The notes under the pieces were generated by a model. It saw nothing but the letters and a program-made list of their open reading frames with translations. It did no database searches and was not told the DNA's origin. From the NCBI GenBank assembly GCA_019056785.1, contig DXJV01000073.1, forward strand, positions 39,957 through 103,956: a DNA stretch of 64,000 nucleotides. Direction: 5' to 3'. This document shows positions 1 through 10,430 of this stretch, piece by piece. Source of the DNA: Candidatus Heimdallarchaeota archaeon. GTDB taxonomy: Archaea > Asgardarchaeota > Heimdallarchaeia > JABLTI01. A program made the translations under genes and the position numbers. How positions within the stretch are numbered: the stretch's first letter is position 1; each line of letters starts with the position of its first letter.

Positions 1-1507
1 AACAACATTACAAGAAAATCTCATCCGTAGTCACAGTGTTGGTGTTGGTGAACCTGCGCCAGATGAGTACGTCAAAGCAATGATGGTTCTCCGTGTGGCA
101 GCACTTGCCCAGGGCAACTCCGGCTGCCAGTTGCAAACACTCGAAAATCTAATTCAAATGATAAATAAAAACGCACTTCCTATCATTCCTTCAAAAGGGT
201 CTGTAGGGGCAAGTGGGGACTTGGCGCCACTCTCGCACATGGCCTTGGCAATGATTGGGGAAGGAGAAAACAATCTGAAATTTCAAGGAAAAATTTATGA
301 TGCTAAGGAGGGGTTGAAAGCTGCGGGGATACCGATTACTCGGTTATCTTACAAGGAAGGGTTGGCTTTAAATAACGGCGCGCAATTTTCAGCCGGCATT
401 GCTTGTATGGTTTTACACCAGGCACAGAATTTACTGGAAAATGCGGTCATTGCGGCGAGCTTATCAATGGAAGCATTGAAGGCAGTTGCGCAGCAATTTG
501 ATGAGCGAGTGCATAACGCAAGAAACCACCCAGGACAAATCGAAATTGCTCGGCTATTACGAGTGTTAACCAAGGGAAGTATCTTTGTGAAGAAACATGA
601 TGAATTTTATACTTGTAAAACGCCAAATTGTGGTTATTATTATGAGGCGGCTATAGGGGATCCAAGTCATAACATTCCTAAAGATACTCCATTCACATCC
701 CTCCCAGAAACATGGGGTTGCCCCAATTGCCAAGGGCCAAAACAGAATTTCGAGAAACAGTGGCCAAAAGTACAGGATGATTATTCTTTAAGATGTACAC
801 CACAAGTATTGGGACCAATAAAAGAGACTCTGGACTTTTGTAGAAAGATCGTTTCCCGTGAAATTAATGCTGCAACAGATAACCCCTTAATTTTCATTAC
901 GAAGAACGACCCGCTGGAATGTGACATTATTTCTGGTGGGAACTTCCATGGAGAACCCATCGCCCTTGCAATGGATTATCTGGCAATTGCGATGGCAGAA
1001 GTGGGTAATATCTCCGAACGAAGAAGTGCAACTTTAATAGACGAGAAGCGAAATCAAGGGTTGGGCTTATTTTTGATACCAGAAAGTGAGCTGGGATTAA
1101 GTAGTGGCTATATGATGCCACAATACACCGCTGCAGCGCTGGTCTCTGAAAATAAAACCCTTGCAACACCCGCTTCGGTGGATTCCATACCAACATCAGA
1201 TGAGGCCGAAGACCATGTGAGCATGAGCCCCATAGCAGCTCGGAAAGCCGCAAAAATCCTGGAAAATTTGGAGTATATTTTAGCAATTGAAATGCTCCTC
1301 GCGGCGCAGGCGATCAGCTTGCGATGTGCTATTCAGAAGGTGCAACCCGAAAAGGCCTTGGGGGCAAAAACGAGAGAAGTCTATAAACAAATTCGTAAGA
1401 AAGTCCCGCAGTTAACAAAAGATAGAATCCTGTATCCGGAAATCAATTTGCTGGCAAAGATGATTCATGACGGGGCATTAGTGGAAGAACCACTCTTTCG
1501 AAATTAG
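1..1507 (+). CDS. hutH: Histidine ammonia-lyase (5'-truncated by window edge) with inserted rubredoxin-like domain
   Basis: Frame is open from base 2 (LQENLIRSHSVGVG). MIO motif GSVGASGDLAPL, KEGLALNNG, VQDDYSLRC, GGNFHGEP, EDHVSM. Insert CKTPNCGYYY...LPETWGCPNC at ~605-757. Confidence 0.92.
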   Translation, partial: TTLQENLIRSHSVGVGEPAPDEYVKAMMVLRVAALAQGNSGCQLQTLENLIQMINKNALPIIPSKGSVGASGDLAPLSHMALAMIGEGENNLKFQGKIYDAKEGLKAAGIPITRLSYKEGLALNNGAQFSAGIACMVLHQAQNLLENAVIAASLSMEALKAVAQQFDERVHNARNHPGQIEIARLLRVLTKGSIFVKKHDEFYTCKTPNCGYYYEAAIGDPSHNIPKDTPFTSLPETWGCPNCQGPKQNFEKQWPKVQDDYSLRCTPQVLGPIKETLDFCRKIVSREINAATDNPLIFITKNDPLECDIISGGNFHGEPIALAMDYLAIAMAEVGNISERRSATLIDEKRNQGLGLFLIPESELGLSSGYMMPQYTAAALVSENKTLATPASVDSIPTSDEAEDHVSMSPIAARKAAKILENLEYILAIEMLLAAQAISLRCAIQKVQPEKALGAKTREVYKQIRKKVPQLTKDRILYPEINLLAKMIHDGALVEEPLFRN

Positions 1508-1623: not shown

Positions 1624-1736
1624 GCCGGGATGGTCTAGTGGTAGAATTCGGGACTGTGGAATTCGCGTGAGCGTTTCTTCCTGCTCCCGAAAGCAGATAT
1701 CCTGAGGTCAGGGTTCGATTCCCTGTCCCGGCACCA
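1624..1736 (+). tRNA. tRNA-His(GTG) with 39-nt intron at canonical 37/38 position (1660-1698), encoded CCA
   Basis: Acceptor stem GCCGGGA/TCCCGGC, anticodon GTG at 1656-1658, T-loop TTCGATT. BHB motif with central helix CTGT/GCAG and bulges GGA and ATA. Confidence 0.93.
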
Positions 1737-1944: not shown

Positions 1945-3468
1945 ATGACTTATACAATTACTGGTTCTGGAATGACGATTGATGACGTCGTCAGAGTAGC
2001 GCGACATGGCGAGAAAGTGGAATTACACAAAGATGCTATTGAACGCATGAAGAAATGCCGTGCAATGCTTGAGAAAAAGATCGATGCACATGAAATTATG
2101 TATGGAGTAAACACCGGTATAGGTGAATTCTCAGAAGTGGTGCTCACAGATGAGCAGGTCAAACAATTCCAAAAATACCTCATCTACAATCATGCTGCAG
2201 GGATCGGTAAACCAGCACCTATCGAACATGTTCGAGGCGCGATTTTGGGACGACTTAATGTCCTCGCCCACGGAAACTCGGGCAATCGTCCTGTGATTGC
2301 TGAAACATTTGTCGAAATGCTCAATAAAGGCGTTACCCCAGAAGTCTGTCGTAAAGGTTCTGTCGGCGCCTGTGGCGACCTTGCCCCAATGTCACAAATC
2401 GCCTTGTTGTTAATGGGCGAAGGACGAGCTTTCTATGAAGGAGAGCTTCTCGAAGGCGCAGAAGCGATGGACCGCGCAGGTATCAAAATACCCGGGCTAA
2501 AGGCTAGAGATGGTCTAGCAGCAATCAATGGTTCAAACTTTTTAACAGCAATGAGCGCTCTGTGGCTCTATGATGCAAAGCGTTTTCTCAAACAAGCAGA
2601 AATCGCCGCAGCAATGTCCTTAGAAGCACTCCTTGCAAACATGAAACCCTATACTCCACTCTTACATGAGGCCCGCGGGTTTCCTGGAGCCATACGCACA
2701 GCAAAAACCATCCATAAATTGGTGAAAGGCGGCGACTTGTTTGAAGGGCGTCTAAAAGTGAAAGTACAGGACGCATATTCCATGCGGTCCACACCACAAG
2801 TCATCGGTGCAGCGCATGATGCTTTAGCATGGGCACAAAAACAGGTGGAAATCGAATTGAACGGTGTCGGTGATAACCCTGTTTTCTTCCCTGATAAAAA
2901 CCTTCAGCTCTCCGGCGCCAACTTTCAAGGCTCACCTGTTTCTTTGCCGATGGATATGGCAGGCGCAGCAATAACAATGGTCTGTGTGATGTCAGAACGA
3001 CGAATGAATAGATTAAACCACCCTGCCTTAAGCGTCGGATTACCACCATTCCTCACAAAAGGCGCAGGTATGATGTCTGGTTTGATGCTAAGCCAATACA
3101 CAGCAGATATGCAAATCGTGGAAATGCGCATCCTATCCATGCCGGCAAGTATCCAGTCAATACCTGCCGCAGCTGACCAAGAAGATTTTGTCAGTATGGG
3201 AATGAACACGGCATTAAAGAATGATCAGATTCTGGATAATGCTTATGGTGTGTTGGGCATCGAGTTTATGGCTGCTGCACAAGCACTTGACTTTAGAGAA
3301 CACAAGCCAGGAAAAGGAGTTGCAAAAGCAAAAGAAGTTATCAGAAAACATGTCAAGTTCTTAGACGAGGACCGACCATTATTCGACGACCATAATCGAA
3401 TGAAAGAATTAGTGAAATCGTGCGAAATCCTTGAAGAAGTAGAAAAAGAAATCGGAAGTCTAGGGTAA
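1945..3468 (+). CDS. MIO-family aromatic amino acid ammonia-lyase/aminomutase (HAL/PAL/TAL family), substrate uncertain
   Basis: YGVNTGIG, GSVGACGDLAP (Ala-Cys-Gly), VQDAYSMRS, GANFQG, QEDFVSMG. Confidence 0.88.
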   Translation: MTYTITGSGMTIDDVVRVARHGEKVELHKDAIERMKKCRAMLEKKIDAHEIMYGVNTGIGEFSEVVLTDEQVKQFQKYLIYNHAAGIGKPAPIEHVRGAILGRLNVLAHGNSGNRPVIAETFVEMLNKGVTPEVCRKGSVGACGDLAPMSQIALLLMGEGRAFYEGELLEGAEAMDRAGIKIPGLKARDGLAAINGSNFLTAMSALWLYDAKRFLKQAEIAAAMSLEALLANMKPYTPLLHEARGFPGAIRTAKTIHKLVKGGDLFEGRLKVKVQDAYSMRSTPQVIGAAHDALAWAQKQVEIELNGVGDNPVFFPDKNLQLSGANFQGSPVSLPMDMAGAAITMVCVMSERRMNRLNHPALSVGLPPFLTKGAGMMSGLMLSQYTADMQIVEMRILSMPASIQSIPAAADQEDFVSMGMNTALKNDQILDNAYGVLGIEFMAAAQALDFREHKPGKGVAKAKEVIRKHVKFLDEDRPLFDDHNRMKELVKSCEILEEVEKEIGSLG

Positions 3469-3948: not shown

Positions 3949-5451
3949 ATGGCTGAAAAAGAACAGCAAAAAACTATAACCATTGGTCGTCCCGCAGGCT
4001 TTCGGGACTTTTATCCGGAAAAATACGCAAAAGTCCAATTTATTCTCGAAACAATGAGGCGCATTTCCAAAGAGTTTGGGTATGTGGAATACGTCACTCC
4101 TTCTGTTGAGCTCCAAGCACTTTATGAATTGAAATCTGGTGAAGGGCTTGTCGGAGAAACTTTCAAAGTACAGAGCCGGAGTAAACAAAAACTGGTGCTC
4201 ATCCCAGAACTAACCCCCAGTCTCACTCGATTGTTGGCGGAAAGGCAACAAAACTATACAAAACCAATACGTTGGTTCTCCATACCAAAATGCTTTCGTG
4301 ATGAGACCCTGCAACGAGGGCGTGTGAAAGAGTTCTGGCAATATAATATTGACTTACTGGGAGTCGAAGACATTTATGCGGATGCTGAAATAATCACTAT
4401 CCTAATCAGAATTATTACAGCTTGTGGATTGACAAAGGATCAGTTTGTTGTGCGCGTTAATGACCGGCAGTTTATGCAAGAAGCATTGGAATTGCTAGGG
4501 GTGAAGAATTTCCTTGAGACAATCCGTGTCTTTGACCGAAAAGGAAAGTTATTCCAAGAGCAACTCGAGAAAGAACTACGAAAAGAGTTCTCAAAAGAAG
4601 AAGCAGCAAAAGTTGCTTTGAAAATCCGGCAAGTAAAACTAAATAAGAAATATTCACTCGAGGAGCTTCCTAGCTCACCACTCGTACAAAAACTGTTGGA
4701 AACAGCAAAGCAACTAGAACGAACAGCATTTCTCACTGCACTGCAAACTCTTGGCGTAACAGAAGCACAAGCGGAAACGCTTTATGCTCTTTCAGAAATA
4801 CGCGACACCCCCACAAAATTCATCGCGCGAGTGGAAAAACTCATGCCTAACAAGGATGTGAAAGCCCTTCTGGAACCTTTAGCAACCCTTGCAAAATTGC
4901 TTGGTGATTTTGGCGTGCTTGACTTTGTTGAATATGATGGAAGCTTGGCACGAGGGCTGGATTATTACACTGGTATTATCTTCGAAGCATGGAGCAAAGA
5001 TAGCATCCTGCCAAGAGCCATAGCCGGTGGGGGGCGCTATGCAGACCTCGTAGCAACGCTAGGGGGGCAGCCTCTTCCAGGGACAGGTTTTGGTTTTGGT
5101 GAAACGGTTCTTTTGGAGCTACTGGAGGAATTTAACATTCCCACCCCAAAACCAACAACAGCGGATGTATACATTGCTCCAATAAAATTAGCAGATGTAA
5201 AGCCAGCAATAAGCTTGTCAAACAAGCTGCGGGGGAAGGGAATAAAAACCATCCTGAATCCGTTCAATTGGCGCATTAAACGCCATTTCGAAAATGCTGA
5301 AAGTCATGGAATAGAATGGATGATAATTGTTGGTGAAAAAGACCTGGCACAGCAGTCTGTAACACTCCGAAATATCGTCACAGGCAAACAGGAAATCATC
5401 CCACTCACAAGCATTGTGAAAACAGTGGCAAAGTGTCTTAAAAATAATTGA
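3949..5451 (+). CDS. hisS: Histidine--tRNA ligase
   Basis: GFRDFYP, PELTPSL, motif 2 FRDETLQRGRVKEF, ARGLDYYTG, GGGRY, C-terminal anticodon-binding domain. Confidence 0.96.
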   Translation: MAEKEQQKTITIGRPAGFRDFYPEKYAKVQFILETMRRISKEFGYVEYVTPSVELQALYELKSGEGLVGETFKVQSRSKQKLVLIPELTPSLTRLLAERQQNYTKPIRWFSIPKCFRDETLQRGRVKEFWQYNIDLLGVEDIYADAEIITILIRIITACGLTKDQFVVRVNDRQFMQEALELLGVKNFLETIRVFDRKGKLFQEQLEKELRKEFSKEEAAKVALKIRQVKLNKKYSLEELPSSPLVQKLLETAKQLERTAFLTALQTLGVTEAQAETLYALSEIRDTPTKFIARVEKLMPNKDVKALLEPLATLAKLLGDFGVLDFVEYDGSLARGLDYYTGIIFEAWSKDSILPRAIAGGGRYADLVATLGGQPLPGTGFGFGETVLLELLEEFNIPTPKPTTADVYIAPIKLADVKPAISLSNKLRGKGIKTILNPFNWRIKRHFENAESHGIEWMIIVGEKDLAQQSVTLRNIVTGKQEIIPLTSIVKTVAKCLKNN

Positions 5452-8083: not shown

Positions 8084-10111
8084 TTAACCTCCTTTTAAGG
8101 ACTCATATCTATCAAAGGACATCTGCCAAAACGCTCGCCCTTCTGTTTCCGAGCGCAAGGCTTGATCAATGCCAAACGACTCAGCAACCGGTAAATTCCC
8201 AGTTATGATGAGAAGGTCTTGGTCAGTTCTTACATCAAGTACTGCCCCCTGTCGTTTATTAAGGATAGCAGTCACTTTTCCGAGGTAGGAGGCCGGAATG
8301 GTTATTTGGATGCGATAAATGGGTTCCTGTATTGTTATCTTTCCTTTCCTTAACGCTTCCCAGACAGCATTTCTCATTGCGGGGACTGTGTGTTCGAACT
8401 TCTCGCTTCCTTCTACAGTGAACTCTTTTAAAATTACTCTGACCTCTGAAACGGGCTTGGAAGCAATAGGGCCAGAAGCGAGGGCATTTTCTGCCCCTAG
8501 CAAAATATTTTCTACAGCATCCTTTGAAAGCTGCTGGAAAAGAACAGCAGGAATAATGATTTCATTTTGGTACTGTGGCAGTTTGACAATCTTGTCATTT
8601 TTTTCAGGCGATGTGGCAGAAGATGTATAAGGGATAGTGGCCGGTTCGACAGAAAGGCTAATGGTGGTACCAAACATTTCATATGTAACTATTCCACTGG
8701 GCTGTTCGATTTTTTCCACTAATACTACCAAAGGTTTGGATGCTGTACATCGGATCTCCTTTGAAAGTTCTTTAACCACTGTTTCAAGATGCAATTCTCC
8801 CAATCCCATCAATAAAATCTCTCCTGATTGATCATCAATACGAACAGAGAGGTTGGGGTCCTCGAGATCAAACCGTTCCAACAAATGTTTTAATTGTGGG
8901 AGGTCACGGAGCATTTCAGGTTCGATTGCCACTGTTACCACTGGATTTGCGAGATACTTTATCTCTTCGAAAGGAGTCATTTTAGTCGTTTTATTGTCAA
9001 CAAGTGTCTCCCCTGGAGAAACTTTTCCTAACCCTGAGAGTGCTACTGTATTCCCAGCGGGGACTGCTACGACTCGTTTTTTCTCTTCGCCCATAAATAC
9101 GTAAAGGTTTTGAACTTTCTTAACTTCGTTTGTATTTAGAAGCCTAACCGTCATTTTTTCCTTTAGTATGCCGGAGAATACTCTGCCAAGAACCAATAAC
9201 CCCACATGGGGGTCCACTAAAAGTTTTGTAGTGCCAAAAACCATTGGAGCAGATTCGTCCTTTGAACATGCTACAAGTGCTTTGCCAATCGGGCTGTCTA
9301 TAGCTCCCTTCCAAATTTTCCGCAGTCGGTATTTTTGGGCGCTAATGGGGTCAGGCAAATGGTCAATTATCATATCAACCAAAGGTTCCTCTATCGGGAG
9401 CATTTGCTGGAGTGCTGCGATGTCATTTTCTTGATACAGCTTGTAAATTGTATCAAAAGTAATATTCTTTTCCTTCGCAAGTGGGACAGAAAGCGCCCAG
9501 CGATGAAGTGCAGAACCAAAAACCACACTCCCTTTTTTTGTTGAAACACGCCAAGCTGGTAATGAGGTTTTTTTGGAATATTGCTTTATCAAGAGGTTAA
9601 AATTAGTATAAATAATTTCAATGCGTTCAGCAATCTCTTTTGGCGGAAGTTTGAGTTCGTTTATTAGTCGGTCGATTTTATTGATAAAGAGGATCGGTTT
9701 AACGCCTTCTGTTATGCATTGGCGAATGACCGTTTCGGTTTGCGCCATTATTTGCTCTACTGCATCCACAACAACAATTGCCCCATCAACAATGCGTAAT
9801 GCACGAGCAACTTTCCCAGAAAAGTCGACATGCCCTGGGCTGTCAATAAGGTTAATAAGAAAGTCACTGTCGTTTTTCTTAATAATGAGGGAGATATTGG
9901 CTGTTTTCATAGTAATGCCCCGGCGTTGCTCTTCTGGTAGGAAGTCAAGCGCGCGGGCTTCTCCGGCGGTGGAAGGAGCAAGAATACCTGCAATGGCCAG
10001 CAGCGAATCTGATAAAGTGGTTTTTCCATGATCTATATGTGCTACTAAGGCAATGTTTCGGATGCGCTCTTGTTGCTCCATAAGAGAGCTTATTTGATCA
10101 ATTAGCCGCAT
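8084..10111 (-). CDS. Elongation factor 2 paralog (aEF-2p type, lacks diphthamide site)
   Basis: AHIDHGKTT, RGIT, DSPGHVDF, NKID, GLGELHLE, LRSETEG. Domain IV is shortened and has no HRG motif. Probable start is MRLIDQ at 10111. Confidence 0.88.
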   Translation of the reverse strand: MRLIDQISSLMEQQERIRNIALVAHIDHGKTTLSDSLLAIAGILAPSTAGEARALDFLPEEQRRGITMKTANISLIIKKNDSDFLINLIDSPGHVDFSGKVARALRIVDGAIVVVDAVEQIMAQTETVIRQCITEGVKPILFINKIDRLINELKLPPKEIAERIEIIYTNFNLLIKQYSKKTSLPAWRVSTKKGSVVFGSALHRWALSVPLAKEKNITFDTIYKLYQENDIAALQQMLPIEEPLVDMIIDHLPDPISAQKYRLRKIWKGAIDSPIGKALVACSKDESAPMVFGTTKLLVDPHVGLLVLGRVFSGILKEKMTVRLLNTNEVKKVQNLYVFMGEEKKRVVAVPAGNTVALSGLGKVSPGETLVDNKTTKMTPFEEIKYLANPVVTVAIEPEMLRDLPQLKHLLERFDLEDPNLSVRIDDQSGEILLMGLGELHLETVVKELSKEIRCTASKPLVVLVEKIEQPSGIVTYEMFGTTISLSVEPATIPYTSSATSPEKNDKIVKLPQYQNEIIIPAVLFQQLSKDAVENILLGAENALASGPIASKPVSEVRVILKEFTVEGSEKFEHTVPAMRNAVWEALRKGKITIQEPIYRIQITIPASYLGKVTAILNKRQGAVLDVRTDQDLLIITGNLPVAESFGIDQALRSETEGRAFWQMSFDRYESLKGG

Positions 10112-10157
10112 TTTTCTTTCCCAGCTTCTCTTTTTTCTATAGAGGGCAATAAGAACC

Positions 10158-10430
10158 TCAACCGCCATGTGCCAACGGCAAAATAGTTACTACTTGGTTT
10201 GGCTTTAAAGGCACATCAAAGAGGTGCAATCGTTTCGCATCTTTTTGGTCGACCATTATCAATAGGTCTGCTCTGATAGCGTCGTCTTTAAACAGCAAGT
10301 TGGAAATATGAGGGTATTGTTTACAAACTTGCTGGAGTGCTTTTAGTAAGGTTGTCTGTTCTGGCAACTCGAGGGTGATTTTTTCTTTTTGATTAAATAT
10401 CGATCCTTTAAAGTCGAAAGAGACATTCAT
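10158..10430 (-). CDS. Ubiquitin-like beta-grasp protein (Urm1/SAMP/MoaD family)
   Basis: 90 aa, ends ILPLAHGG (di-glycine, Urm1-like HGG). Confidence 0.85.
   Translation of the reverse strand: MNVSFDFKGSIFNQKEKITLELPEQTTLLKALQQVCKQYPHISNLLFKDDAIRADLLIMVDQKDAKRLHLFDVPLKPNQVVTILPLAHGG

What the first reader, a model, noticed from the sequence alone, without database searches (positions are those of the whole stretch)
605..757. Rubredoxin domain inserted inside a histidine ammonia-lyase
Seen: a complete rubredoxin-like unit (CKTPNCGYYY..IGDP..NIP..TPF..LPETW.CPNC..PK..F) sits in frame just before the conserved VQD.YSLRC motif, and the HAL catalytic motifs (RSH, ASG, NFHG, EDHVS) are intact. 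Established: HALs are non-redox MIO enzymes with no Fe domain, and this position is a variable surface loop near the active-site entrance. Inference: an iron- or redox-gated histidase, or a docking/electron-carrier module linking urocanate formation to its reduction. I do not know of this architecture being described.
Basis: partly seen in the sequence, partly recalled or inferred. Interest (0 to 1): 0.8.

Follow-up and report, generated by a model that had tools for sequence, protein, structure and literature searches.

The report
Rubredoxin domain nested in histidine ammonia-lyase
One family of Heimdall (Asgard) archaea from marine sediments and vents makes an otherwise normal histidine-degrading enzyme with a complete four-cysteine rubredoxin domain built into the loop that caps its active site; the fusion is real and conserved, I found no paper on it, and its role is untested.

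Summary
Window 2-1507(+) is the 3' part of a 575-aa histidine ammonia-lyase (HAL). It passes NCBI's hutH equivalog cut-off and keeps the MIO triad and all eight mapped catalytic residues.

Window 599-754 encodes a 52-residue insert:
- It matches Pfam Rubredoxin (48-54 bits, cut-off 23).
- It is predicted to fold like D. gigas rubredoxin (TM 0.94, rmsd 1.1 A).
- Its only departure is a CX4C first knuckle.
- It lies between P. putida HAL residues 270 and 271, six residues before Q277/Y280/R283, in the outer active-site loop.

It is not an assembly error. Contigs from four independent studies bridge it, and 12 of 12 genomes of one Heimdallarchaeota family carry it. The four Cys and the aromatic core are invariant, and dN/dS is 0.11-0.26.

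Two results are new here. The loop is an insertion hot spot across HALs, and the nearest sister protein carries a different 8-Cys insert at the same site.

Best reading: a metal-stapled cap on the active-site entrance. A PknG-like redox or metal switch is possible; an electron carrier to urocanate reduction has no support. Metal content and function are untested.

The scan noted this fusion before on other genomes (e1-5394689, e1-5497237).

The parts
1..1507 (+). 3' 501 codons plus stop of the 575-aa rubredoxin-bearing histidine ammonia-lyase (Rd-HAL). The start codon lies 221 nt upstream of the window (G000:C47:39736).
   Evidence: ORF list. Full protein P0003. Pfam PF00221 2e-159. hutH TIGR01225 582.8 bits, cut-off 539.15.
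599..754 (+). 52-residue rubredoxin insert (P0003 residues 274-325). It lies between the equivalents of P. putida HAL residues 270 and 271.
   Evidence: PF00301 at 48-54 bits. phmmer to PDB rubredoxins at 9e-13 to 1e-10. Predicted fold TM 0.94, rmsd 1.1 A to 1RDG. Boundaries taken from the alignment to 1gkm and 7tqr.
614..631 (+). First metal knuckle, C279-x4-C284-G. It is two residues longer than the canonical CxxCG.
   Evidence: Sequence. Alignment to P. furiosus rubredoxin shows a 2-residue gap there. Both Cys and the x4 spacing are invariant in 14 family members.
719..730 (+). Second metal knuckle, C314-P-N-C317.
   Evidence: Sequence. C, P and C are invariant in the family.
209..217 (+). 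A144-S145-G146, the precursor of the MIO electrophile.
   Evidence: Sequence. Aligns with ASG 142-144 of P. putida HAL.
773..793 (+). Q332, Y335 and R338, the equivalents of P. putida HAL Q277, Y280 and R283. They lie 7-13 residues after the insert.
   Evidence: Alignment to 1gkm.
1624..1733 (+). tRNA-His(GUG) gene with an intron, between the two lyase genes (context).
   Evidence: Rfam tRNA 48.9 bits. ARAGORN with the intron option, which also finds it next to Rd-HAL in 7 of the 12 loci examined (this genome's L020 and six relatives).
1945..3468 (+). Paralogous lyase without the insert (HAL2, 507 aa, about 37-40% identical) (context).
   Evidence: Syntenic in 9 of 11 related loci.
3949..5451 (+). 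Histidyl-tRNA synthetase (context).
   Evidence: Pfam tRNA-synt_His plus HGTP_anticodon. Syntenic in 7 of 11 related loci, 6 of them in genus g1.

Best explanation
The gene encodes a functional histidine ammonia-lyase (histidine to urocanate plus ammonia, MIO chemistry, no redox step). Its short outer active-site loop has been replaced by a whole rubredoxin-fold domain holding one metal ion (Fe or Zn) on four cysteines. Rubredoxin's two ends lie side by side, so it fits into a loop without disturbing the host fold. Once docked, it forms a rigid, metal-stapled cap over the substrate tunnel, probably that of the neighbouring subunit's active site. No electrons are passed to the substrate. A properly closed active site then depends on the Cys4 site being metal-loaded and unoxidised. 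Shown here: the architecture, the fold, the position, conservation and selection. Inferred: the capping role and the metal dependence. Unknown: which metal is bound.
For: The HAL part is intact: the hutH equivalog score is above its cut-off and the MIO triad and eight catalytic residues are conserved. The whole-protein AF2 model has pLDDT 96.9 and pTM 0.95, with the insert at 95-97, and it matches solved HALs at TM 0.92-0.94. hutU and hutI are present in the genome. The insert is a true rubredoxin by profile, by sequence and by predicted fold. It sits between HAL residues 270 and 271, six residues before Q277. In AvPAL, residue 306, eight residues before the Y280 equivalent Y314, is named as part of an active-site loop that reaches the adjacent chain's substrate, and an outer loop is described as the external cap (also for HAL). 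The four Cys, G285, Y286, Y287, G293, F305, W312, P315 and F324 are invariant across 14 members. dN/dS of the insert is 0.11-0.26 in close pairs. The same loop carries unrelated inserts of 45-158 aa in many other HAL clusters, and the sister protein P0026 has an 8-Cys insert there. This argues for a general capping or bracing role for modules at this site. The PDB table shows that crystallographers use rubredoxin as a loop-insertion module in GPCRs. The insert is acidic (net charge -1 to -7) like free rubredoxins, so nucleic-acid binding is unlikely.
Against: I had no model coordinates, so I measured no distance from the insert to the MIO or to the Tyr55 loop. The capping geometry rests on sequence position plus published descriptions of PAL and HAL loops. 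The full rubredoxin signature is kept, which is more than a simple zinc staple would need and may point to a redox role. The insert evolves faster than the core (dN/dS 0.11-0.26 against 0.03-0.13). Metal content, activity and oligomer state are untested.
Confidence: 0.5

Rival explanations
1. Physiological redox, oxygen or iron switch. The Fe(Cys)4 centre reports the cell's redox or metal state. Oxidation or metal loss loosens the cap and changes histidase activity, as described for the rubredoxin-like domain of the kinase PknG.
For: PknG precedent: its Rdx domain limits access to the substrate site, and perturbing its metal centre alters activity. The complete Fe-rubredoxin signature is retained. 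The hosts come from sediment and vent metagenomes and carry the usual anaerobe's rubredoxin and rubrerythrin genes. The position is at the active-site loop.
Against: There is no direct evidence. Other HALs carry non-metal inserts at the same site, so a sensor is not needed to explain an insert there. The neighbourhood holds no linked redox regulator or reductase.
Confidence: 0.25
2. Electron-transfer or docking module. The rubredoxin exchanges electrons with, or recruits, a partner such as a rubredoxin reductase, a urocanate-reducing flavoenzyme, the paralog HAL2 or HutU.
For: Most natural rubredoxin fusions are electron carriers, for example AlkB-rubredoxin and flavorubredoxin in the PDB table. 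The insert has an acidic surface like free rubredoxins.
Against: The HAL reaction needs no electrons. The genome has the hydrolytic hutU and hutI route. FAD_binding_2 genes are not linked to the HAL cluster, and the one on C57 lies about 40 kb from hutI. The conserved neighbours are a ubiquitin-like system, tRNA-His, HAL2 and HisRS, with no redox enzymes.
Confidence: 0.1
3. Tolerated passenger. A rubredoxin gene landed in a permissive loop and is kept only because its removal or misfolding would now damage the enzyme.
For: The loop is highly permissive. The insert evolves faster than the core.
Against: The ligands and the core are invariant, and dN/dS is well below 1, across genus- and family-level divergence. 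The insert is present in 12 of 12 genomes of the family with no losses.
Confidence: 0.12
4. Assembly or frame artefact.
For: None.
Against: Contigs from four separate studies span both junctions without joints. Twelve genomes and nine or more protein clusters share the architecture.
Confidence: 0.01

Closest known systems
Histidine ammonia-lyase HutH (P. putida 1B8F/1GKM; Thermoplasma acidophilum 7TQR)
   Same: Same fold (TM 0.92-0.94). Same MIO triad and all eight mapped catalytic residues. Above the hutH equivalog cut-off. hutU and hutI are in the genome.
   Different: 52 extra residues form a rubredoxin domain between residues 270 and 271. That is where bacterial HALs have a short loop of the form S-H-x-x-C-x-K-V.
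Rubredoxin (PF00301; e.g. P. furiosus 1BRF, D. gigas 1RDG)
   Same: Four Cys in two knuckles. Conserved G, Y, Y, F, W, P, K and F core. Predicted rmsd 1.1 A. Acidic.
   Different: It is nested in an enzyme rather than free. The first knuckle is CX4C, not CX2C. It scores below NCBI's stand-alone rubredoxin equivalog cut-off (38-43 bits against 90). No close free-standing relative was found by word search.
Rubredoxin-like domain of mycobacterial kinase PknG
   Same: A Cys4 rubredoxin-type domain beside the active site of a non-redox enzyme, reported to limit substrate access and to respond to perturbation of its metal centre.
   Different: PknG's domain is N-terminal to the catalytic core, not nested in a loop. 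The host enzyme is unrelated. No functional data exist for the HAL insert.
Engineered rubredoxin loop fusions in GPCR crystallography (e.g. CCR5 4MBS, MT2 6ME6)
   Same: Rubredoxin placed inside a loop of another protein, made possible by its adjacent termini. These chimeras are among the sequence and fold matches.
   Different: They are artificial and the rubredoxin has no function in the host. Here the fusion is natural and under purifying selection.
Other HALs with inserts at the same loop (e.g. P0026 with an 8-Cys insert; P0016, P0029 and P0091 with inserts of about 100-158 aa)
   Same: Same insertion point. P0026 is the sister of the Rd-HAL clade (SH-aLRT 95).
   Different: Those inserts have no rubredoxin signature. 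P0026 gives only sub-threshold zinc-ribbon hints and shares little beyond CPNC and the flank.

Membership tests
Histidine ammonia-lyase (HutH, TIGR01225 / PF00221) | Profile score above the curated equivalog cut-off | tested here: met
   TIGR01225 582.8 bits against 539.15. NF006871 608.6 bits against 524. PF00221 2e-159.
Histidine ammonia-lyase (HutH, TIGR01225 / PF00221) | Ala-Ser-Gly triad that forms MIO | tested here: met
   A144-S145-G146 aligns with 142-144 of 1gkm. It is present in all family members.
Histidine ammonia-lyase (HutH, TIGR01225 / PF00221) | Catalytic and substrate residues Y53, H83, N195, Q277, Y280, R283, F329 and E414 (P. putida numbering; the list is recalled from the literature) | tested here: met
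   Y55, H85, N199, Q332, Y335, R338, F389 and E477 in the alignment to 1gkm.
Histidine ammonia-lyase (HutH, TIGR01225 / PF00221) | HAL fold | tested here: met
   AF2 pLDDT 96.9. Foldseek 7tqr and 1gkj, TM by target 0.92-0.94.
Histidine ammonia-lyase (HutH, TIGR01225 / PF00221) | Converts histidine to urocanate | not testable with these tools
   Needs an enzyme assay. Context is consistent: hutU and hutI in the genome, and a tRNA-His and HisRS neighbourhood.
Rubredoxin (PF00301) | Pfam score above the gathering cut-off | tested here: met
   48.2 bits in context and 53.8 bits alone, against 23.
Rubredoxin (PF00301) | Two Cys knuckles, CxxCG and CPxCG | tested here: inconclusive
   Four Cys are present and invariant. 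The first knuckle is CX4C-G, and the residue after the second knuckle varies (Q, G, H or N).
Rubredoxin (PF00301) | Rubredoxin fold with an aromatic core | tested here: met
   Y286, Y287, F305, W312 and F324 are invariant. The model of the insert matches 1RDG at TM 0.94, rmsd 1.1 A.
Rubredoxin (PF00301) | Binds Fe and cycles Fe(II)/Fe(III) | not testable with these tools
   Needs metal analysis, a visible spectrum and electrochemistry.
Stand-alone rubredoxin (NCBIfam NF045768 equivalog) | Score above the equivalog cut-off of 90 bits | tested here: not met
   38.4-43.3 bits. It is a domain, not an equivalog of the free carrier.
PknG-type regulatory rubredoxin domain (functional analogy only) | The metal centre state changes the host enzyme's activity | not testable with these tools
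   Only the precedent could be read.

The most novel reading that the evidence does not exclude
The rubredoxin is a working Fe(Cys)4 sensor that opens or closes the lid of an MIO enzyme. Histidine breakdown in this Heimdallarchaeota family would then be switched by oxygen, redox or iron status. I know of no redox- or metal-gated aromatic amino-acid ammonia-lyase described so far, and it would be a natural counterpart of PknG-type control.
Probability: 0.25. Interest if true: 0.75.

Novelty: new variant of a known kind. Interest (0 to 1): 0.58.

Why it matters
MIO lyases (HAL, PAL, TAL) are studied closely as medical and industrial enzymes, and their activity and stability depend on two loops that cap the active site. 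This is a natural enzyme in which one of those loops is a whole metal-binding domain. The data also show that the same loop has taken up many different modules across HALs. If the domain controls lid closure, it offers a built-in handle (metal or redox) on an otherwise unregulated enzyme class and a template for engineering. If it is only a brace, it is still a clean natural example of domain insertion using rubredoxin's adjacent termini, the same device crystallographers use. It also adds to the picture of histidine metabolism in Heimdallarchaeia.

Tried and rejected
- Misassembly is rejected.
- Literature searches found nothing relevant: 'histidine ammonia-lyase' + rubredoxin (4 irrelevant papers), rubredoxin + CX4C (0), ammonia lyase + outer loop + Tyr78 (0), HAL + Cys273 (0). 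My recollections about type-2 CX4C rubredoxins and about the reactive Cys273 of P. putida HAL therefore stay unverified and carry no weight.
- A word-based search for free rubredoxins close to the insert gave no candidate. This says nothing about more distant ones.
- The ESM Atlas returned only ordinary HAL clusters.
- No RNA holder was listed among the sequencing runs. This is no evidence on expression.
- I did not use complex prediction. Two full chains exceed its size limit, and a HAL homo-oligomer would pass by likeness to solved structures.
- Homology of P0026's 8-Cys insert to rubredoxin could not be shown: only CPNC and the flank align, and Pfam hits are sub-threshold.
- The PF00890 search for a urocanate-reductase-like flavoenzyme was ambiguous and showed nothing linked to the HAL cluster.
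- Nucleic-acid binding by the insert was considered and set aside because the insert is acidic.

Full report
OBSERVATION. Pfam gives Lyase_aromatic at 2e-159. It also gives Rubredoxin PF00301 at 1.1e-12 (48.2 bits; 53.8 bits for the piece alone; cut-off 23), covering window 608-751. The window lies at G000:C47:39957-103956. The complete gene starts 221 nt upstream and encodes 575 aa (P0003).

THE HAL PART IS INTACT.
- Full-length P0003 scores 582.8 bits on NCBI's hutH equivalog model (cut-off 539.15) and 608.6 bits on the HAL subfamily model.
- Aligned to P. putida HAL (1gkm), all mapped residues are kept: Y53, H83, A142-S143-G144, N195, Q277, Y280, R283, F329 and E414 correspond to Y55, H85, A144-S145-G146, N199, Q332, Y335, R338, F389 and E477.
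- An AlphaFold2 model built on a 112-sequence alignment has mean pLDDT 96.9 and pTM 0.95, with 95-97 across the insert.
- That model matches solved HALs (7tqr, 1gkj, 1b8f) at TM-by-target 0.92-0.94.
- The genome holds only two PF00221 genes, this one and its neighbour.
- It also holds hutU and hutI side by side on contig C57.

THE INSERT IS A TRUE RUBREDOXIN.
- The extra 52 residues (P0003 274-325, window 599-754) lie between the equivalents of HAL residues 270 and 271.
- phmmer finds free rubredoxins in the PDB at 9e-13 (9w1v) and 1.5e-10 (P. furiosus 1brf). The only gap is two extra residues in the first knuckle, C-KTPN-C against C-K--I-C.
- A model of the insert with its flanks matches D. 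gigas rubredoxin 1RDG at TM 0.94, rmsd 1.1 A.
- It scores below NCBI's stand-alone rubredoxin equivalog cut-off. No close free-standing relative turned up in a word-based search.
- The genome's own 53-aa rubredoxin on contig C49 is 44% identical to the insert.
- The insert is acidic (net -1 to -7), as free rubredoxins are.

IT IS REAL AND CONSERVED.
- A region-restricted protein search found nine 90%-identity clusters of 572-584 aa, one of them the window's own protein (100% identical), all carrying PF00221 plus PF00301.
- Among 400 genomes of the phylum, the nested form occurs in 12 of 12 genomes of one family, the window's own among them (genus g1: 11 of 11; genus g2: 1 of 1). Elsewhere only free or differently fused rubredoxins were seen.
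- A motif scan of 185,579 species genomes returned ten loci, nine titled Heimdallarchaeota or Promethearchaeati and one titled Bathyarchaeia.
- Logan contigs from four separate sediment or vent studies cover window 605-757 and both junctions with no joint or deletion (records 3, 6, 7, 8).
- Across 14 members, C279, C284, G285, Y286, Y287, G293, F305, W312, C314, P315, C317, F324 and K326 are invariant, and the CX4C spacing is always kept. The g2 form lacks 7 loop residues.
- In four close pairs, dN/dS of the insert is 0.11-0.26, against 0.03-0.13 for the core. Selection on the insert is purifying but weaker.

WHERE IT SITS.
- The C-terminal junction is six residues before Q332 (Q277), nine before Y335 (Y280) and twelve before R338 (R283).
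- Published descriptions say each MIO active site is built from three subunits and is capped by an inner loop and an outer loop, the outer one acting as the external cap.
- In AvPAL the Y280 equivalent (Y314) acts on the adjacent chain's substrate. Residue 306, eight residues before it, is named as part of an active-site loop.
- The insert therefore replaces the outer capping loop. I could not measure this on the model because no coordinates reached the script box. The geometry is inferred.

NEW CONTEXT FOUND HERE.
(a) I aligned the 150 best representatives of a full HMMER scan. In that alignment the stretch from T262 to V331 is 15-18 aa in ordinary HALs and often reads G-S-x-I-x-x-S-H-x-x-C-x-K-V. 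About 17 clusters carry 100-158 aa there, and several more carry 45-82 aa. These include P0026 with eight Cys and P0132 with a His-rich run. None of the six long inserts I scanned has a Pfam match. The loop is a general insertion hot spot.
(b) In a maximum-likelihood tree whose trimming rule (columns filled in under 30% of rows are dropped; the insert is in 12 of 51 rows) should have removed the insert columns, the twelve Rd-HALs form one clade (SH-aLRT 100). Its sister is P0026 (SH-aLRT 95). P0026's insert shares a CX4C, a CPNC and the flank, but shows no demonstrable rubredoxin homology. It comes from a single 2.8-kb contig.
(c) All 83 genomes of the class have HAL genes. Other families have an ordinary HAL of about 510-515 aa, often beside a HAL2 ortholog. 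In family f1 the Rd-HAL fills that role.
(d) Synteny in genus g1 runs: ubiquitin-like system (JAB, ThiF-type E1, E2-like), Rd-HAL, tRNA-His(GUG), HAL2, HisRS. This is a histidine theme with no redox enzyme.

MECHANISM.
- I commit to a metal-stapled cap (0.5). Rubredoxin's adjacent termini let it sit in the loop, the same property exploited in GPCR chimeras.
- The high pTM suggests rigid docking. The variety of other inserts at the site suggests that extra capping or bracing there is what selection favours.
- Because the fold needs its metal, the enzyme's lid then depends on the Cys4 site.
- A physiological redox or metal switch like PknG's rubredoxin domain is the most interesting alternative (0.25). 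It fits the fully retained Fe-rubredoxin signature and the hosts' anaerobic setting, but has no direct support.
- An electron-carrier or docking role (0.1) lacks any linked partner, and the hydrolytic hut route is present.
- A tolerated passenger (0.12) is disfavoured by the invariant ligands and the low dN/dS.
- An artefact is excluded.

NOVELTY. I found no paper on this architecture. The sequences are public and annotated simply as histidine or aromatic amino-acid lyase. Earlier notes of this scan record the same fusion in other genomes and reach a similar reading (e1-5394689, e1-5497237). They are not independent evidence. I rate it a new variant of a known kind with moderate-to-high interest, limited by the untested function.

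Noticed in passing
window 2368-2376 (within HAL2, 1945-3468 +): The paralog's MIO-forming triad reads Ala-Cys-Gly in this genome. All 9 HAL2 orthologs in related genomes read Ala-Ser-Gly. It could be a strain variant or an error. HAL2 also differs from HutH at two conserved motifs (L-I-Y-N-H and Q-E-D-F-V-S) and falls below the hutH equivalog cut-off (497 against 539), so its substrate may not be histidine.
   Followed up: partly
window 1624-1733 (+): tRNA-His(GUG) with an intron after the anticodon. ARAGORN missed it in default mode. Rfam and ARAGORN with introns allowed found it. A tRNA-His lies next to Rd-HAL in 7 of the 12 loci examined (this genome's L020 and six relatives), and it carries an intron in two of the seven.
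   Followed up: partly
L020:7984-11590 (G000:C47, just upstream of the window): A ubiquitin-like modifier cluster (Prok-JAB, ThiF-type E1, a 105-aa conserved ORF, a weak UQ_con E2-like protein) lies directly upstream of Rd-HAL. It is syntenic across the genus.
   Followed up: partly
proteins P0026, P0132, P0016, P0029, P0091 and others: The HAL outer loop is an insertion hot spot in metagenomic HALs. Inserts range from 45 to 158 aa, mostly without Pfam matches. They include an 8-Cys module (P0026, sister to the Rd-HAL clade) and a His-rich run (P0132).
   Followed up: partly
L055 and L061 (G028:C34, G011:C38): In a sister family of the class, an ordinary HAL of 511-513 aa and a HAL2 ortholog lie back to back. 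The two-lyase pairing therefore predates the rubredoxin insertion.
   Followed up: partly
window 8084-10168 (-): A 693-694-aa EF-2/EF-G family GTPase. A second such gene fragment lies next to the free rubredoxin on contig C49.
   Followed up: no
L036 (DATKZI010000043.1): One genome carrying the Rd-HAL is titled 'Candidatus Bathyarchaeia archaeon', while all its relatives are titled Heimdallarchaeota. This is probably a taxonomic mislabel in the record.
   Followed up: no
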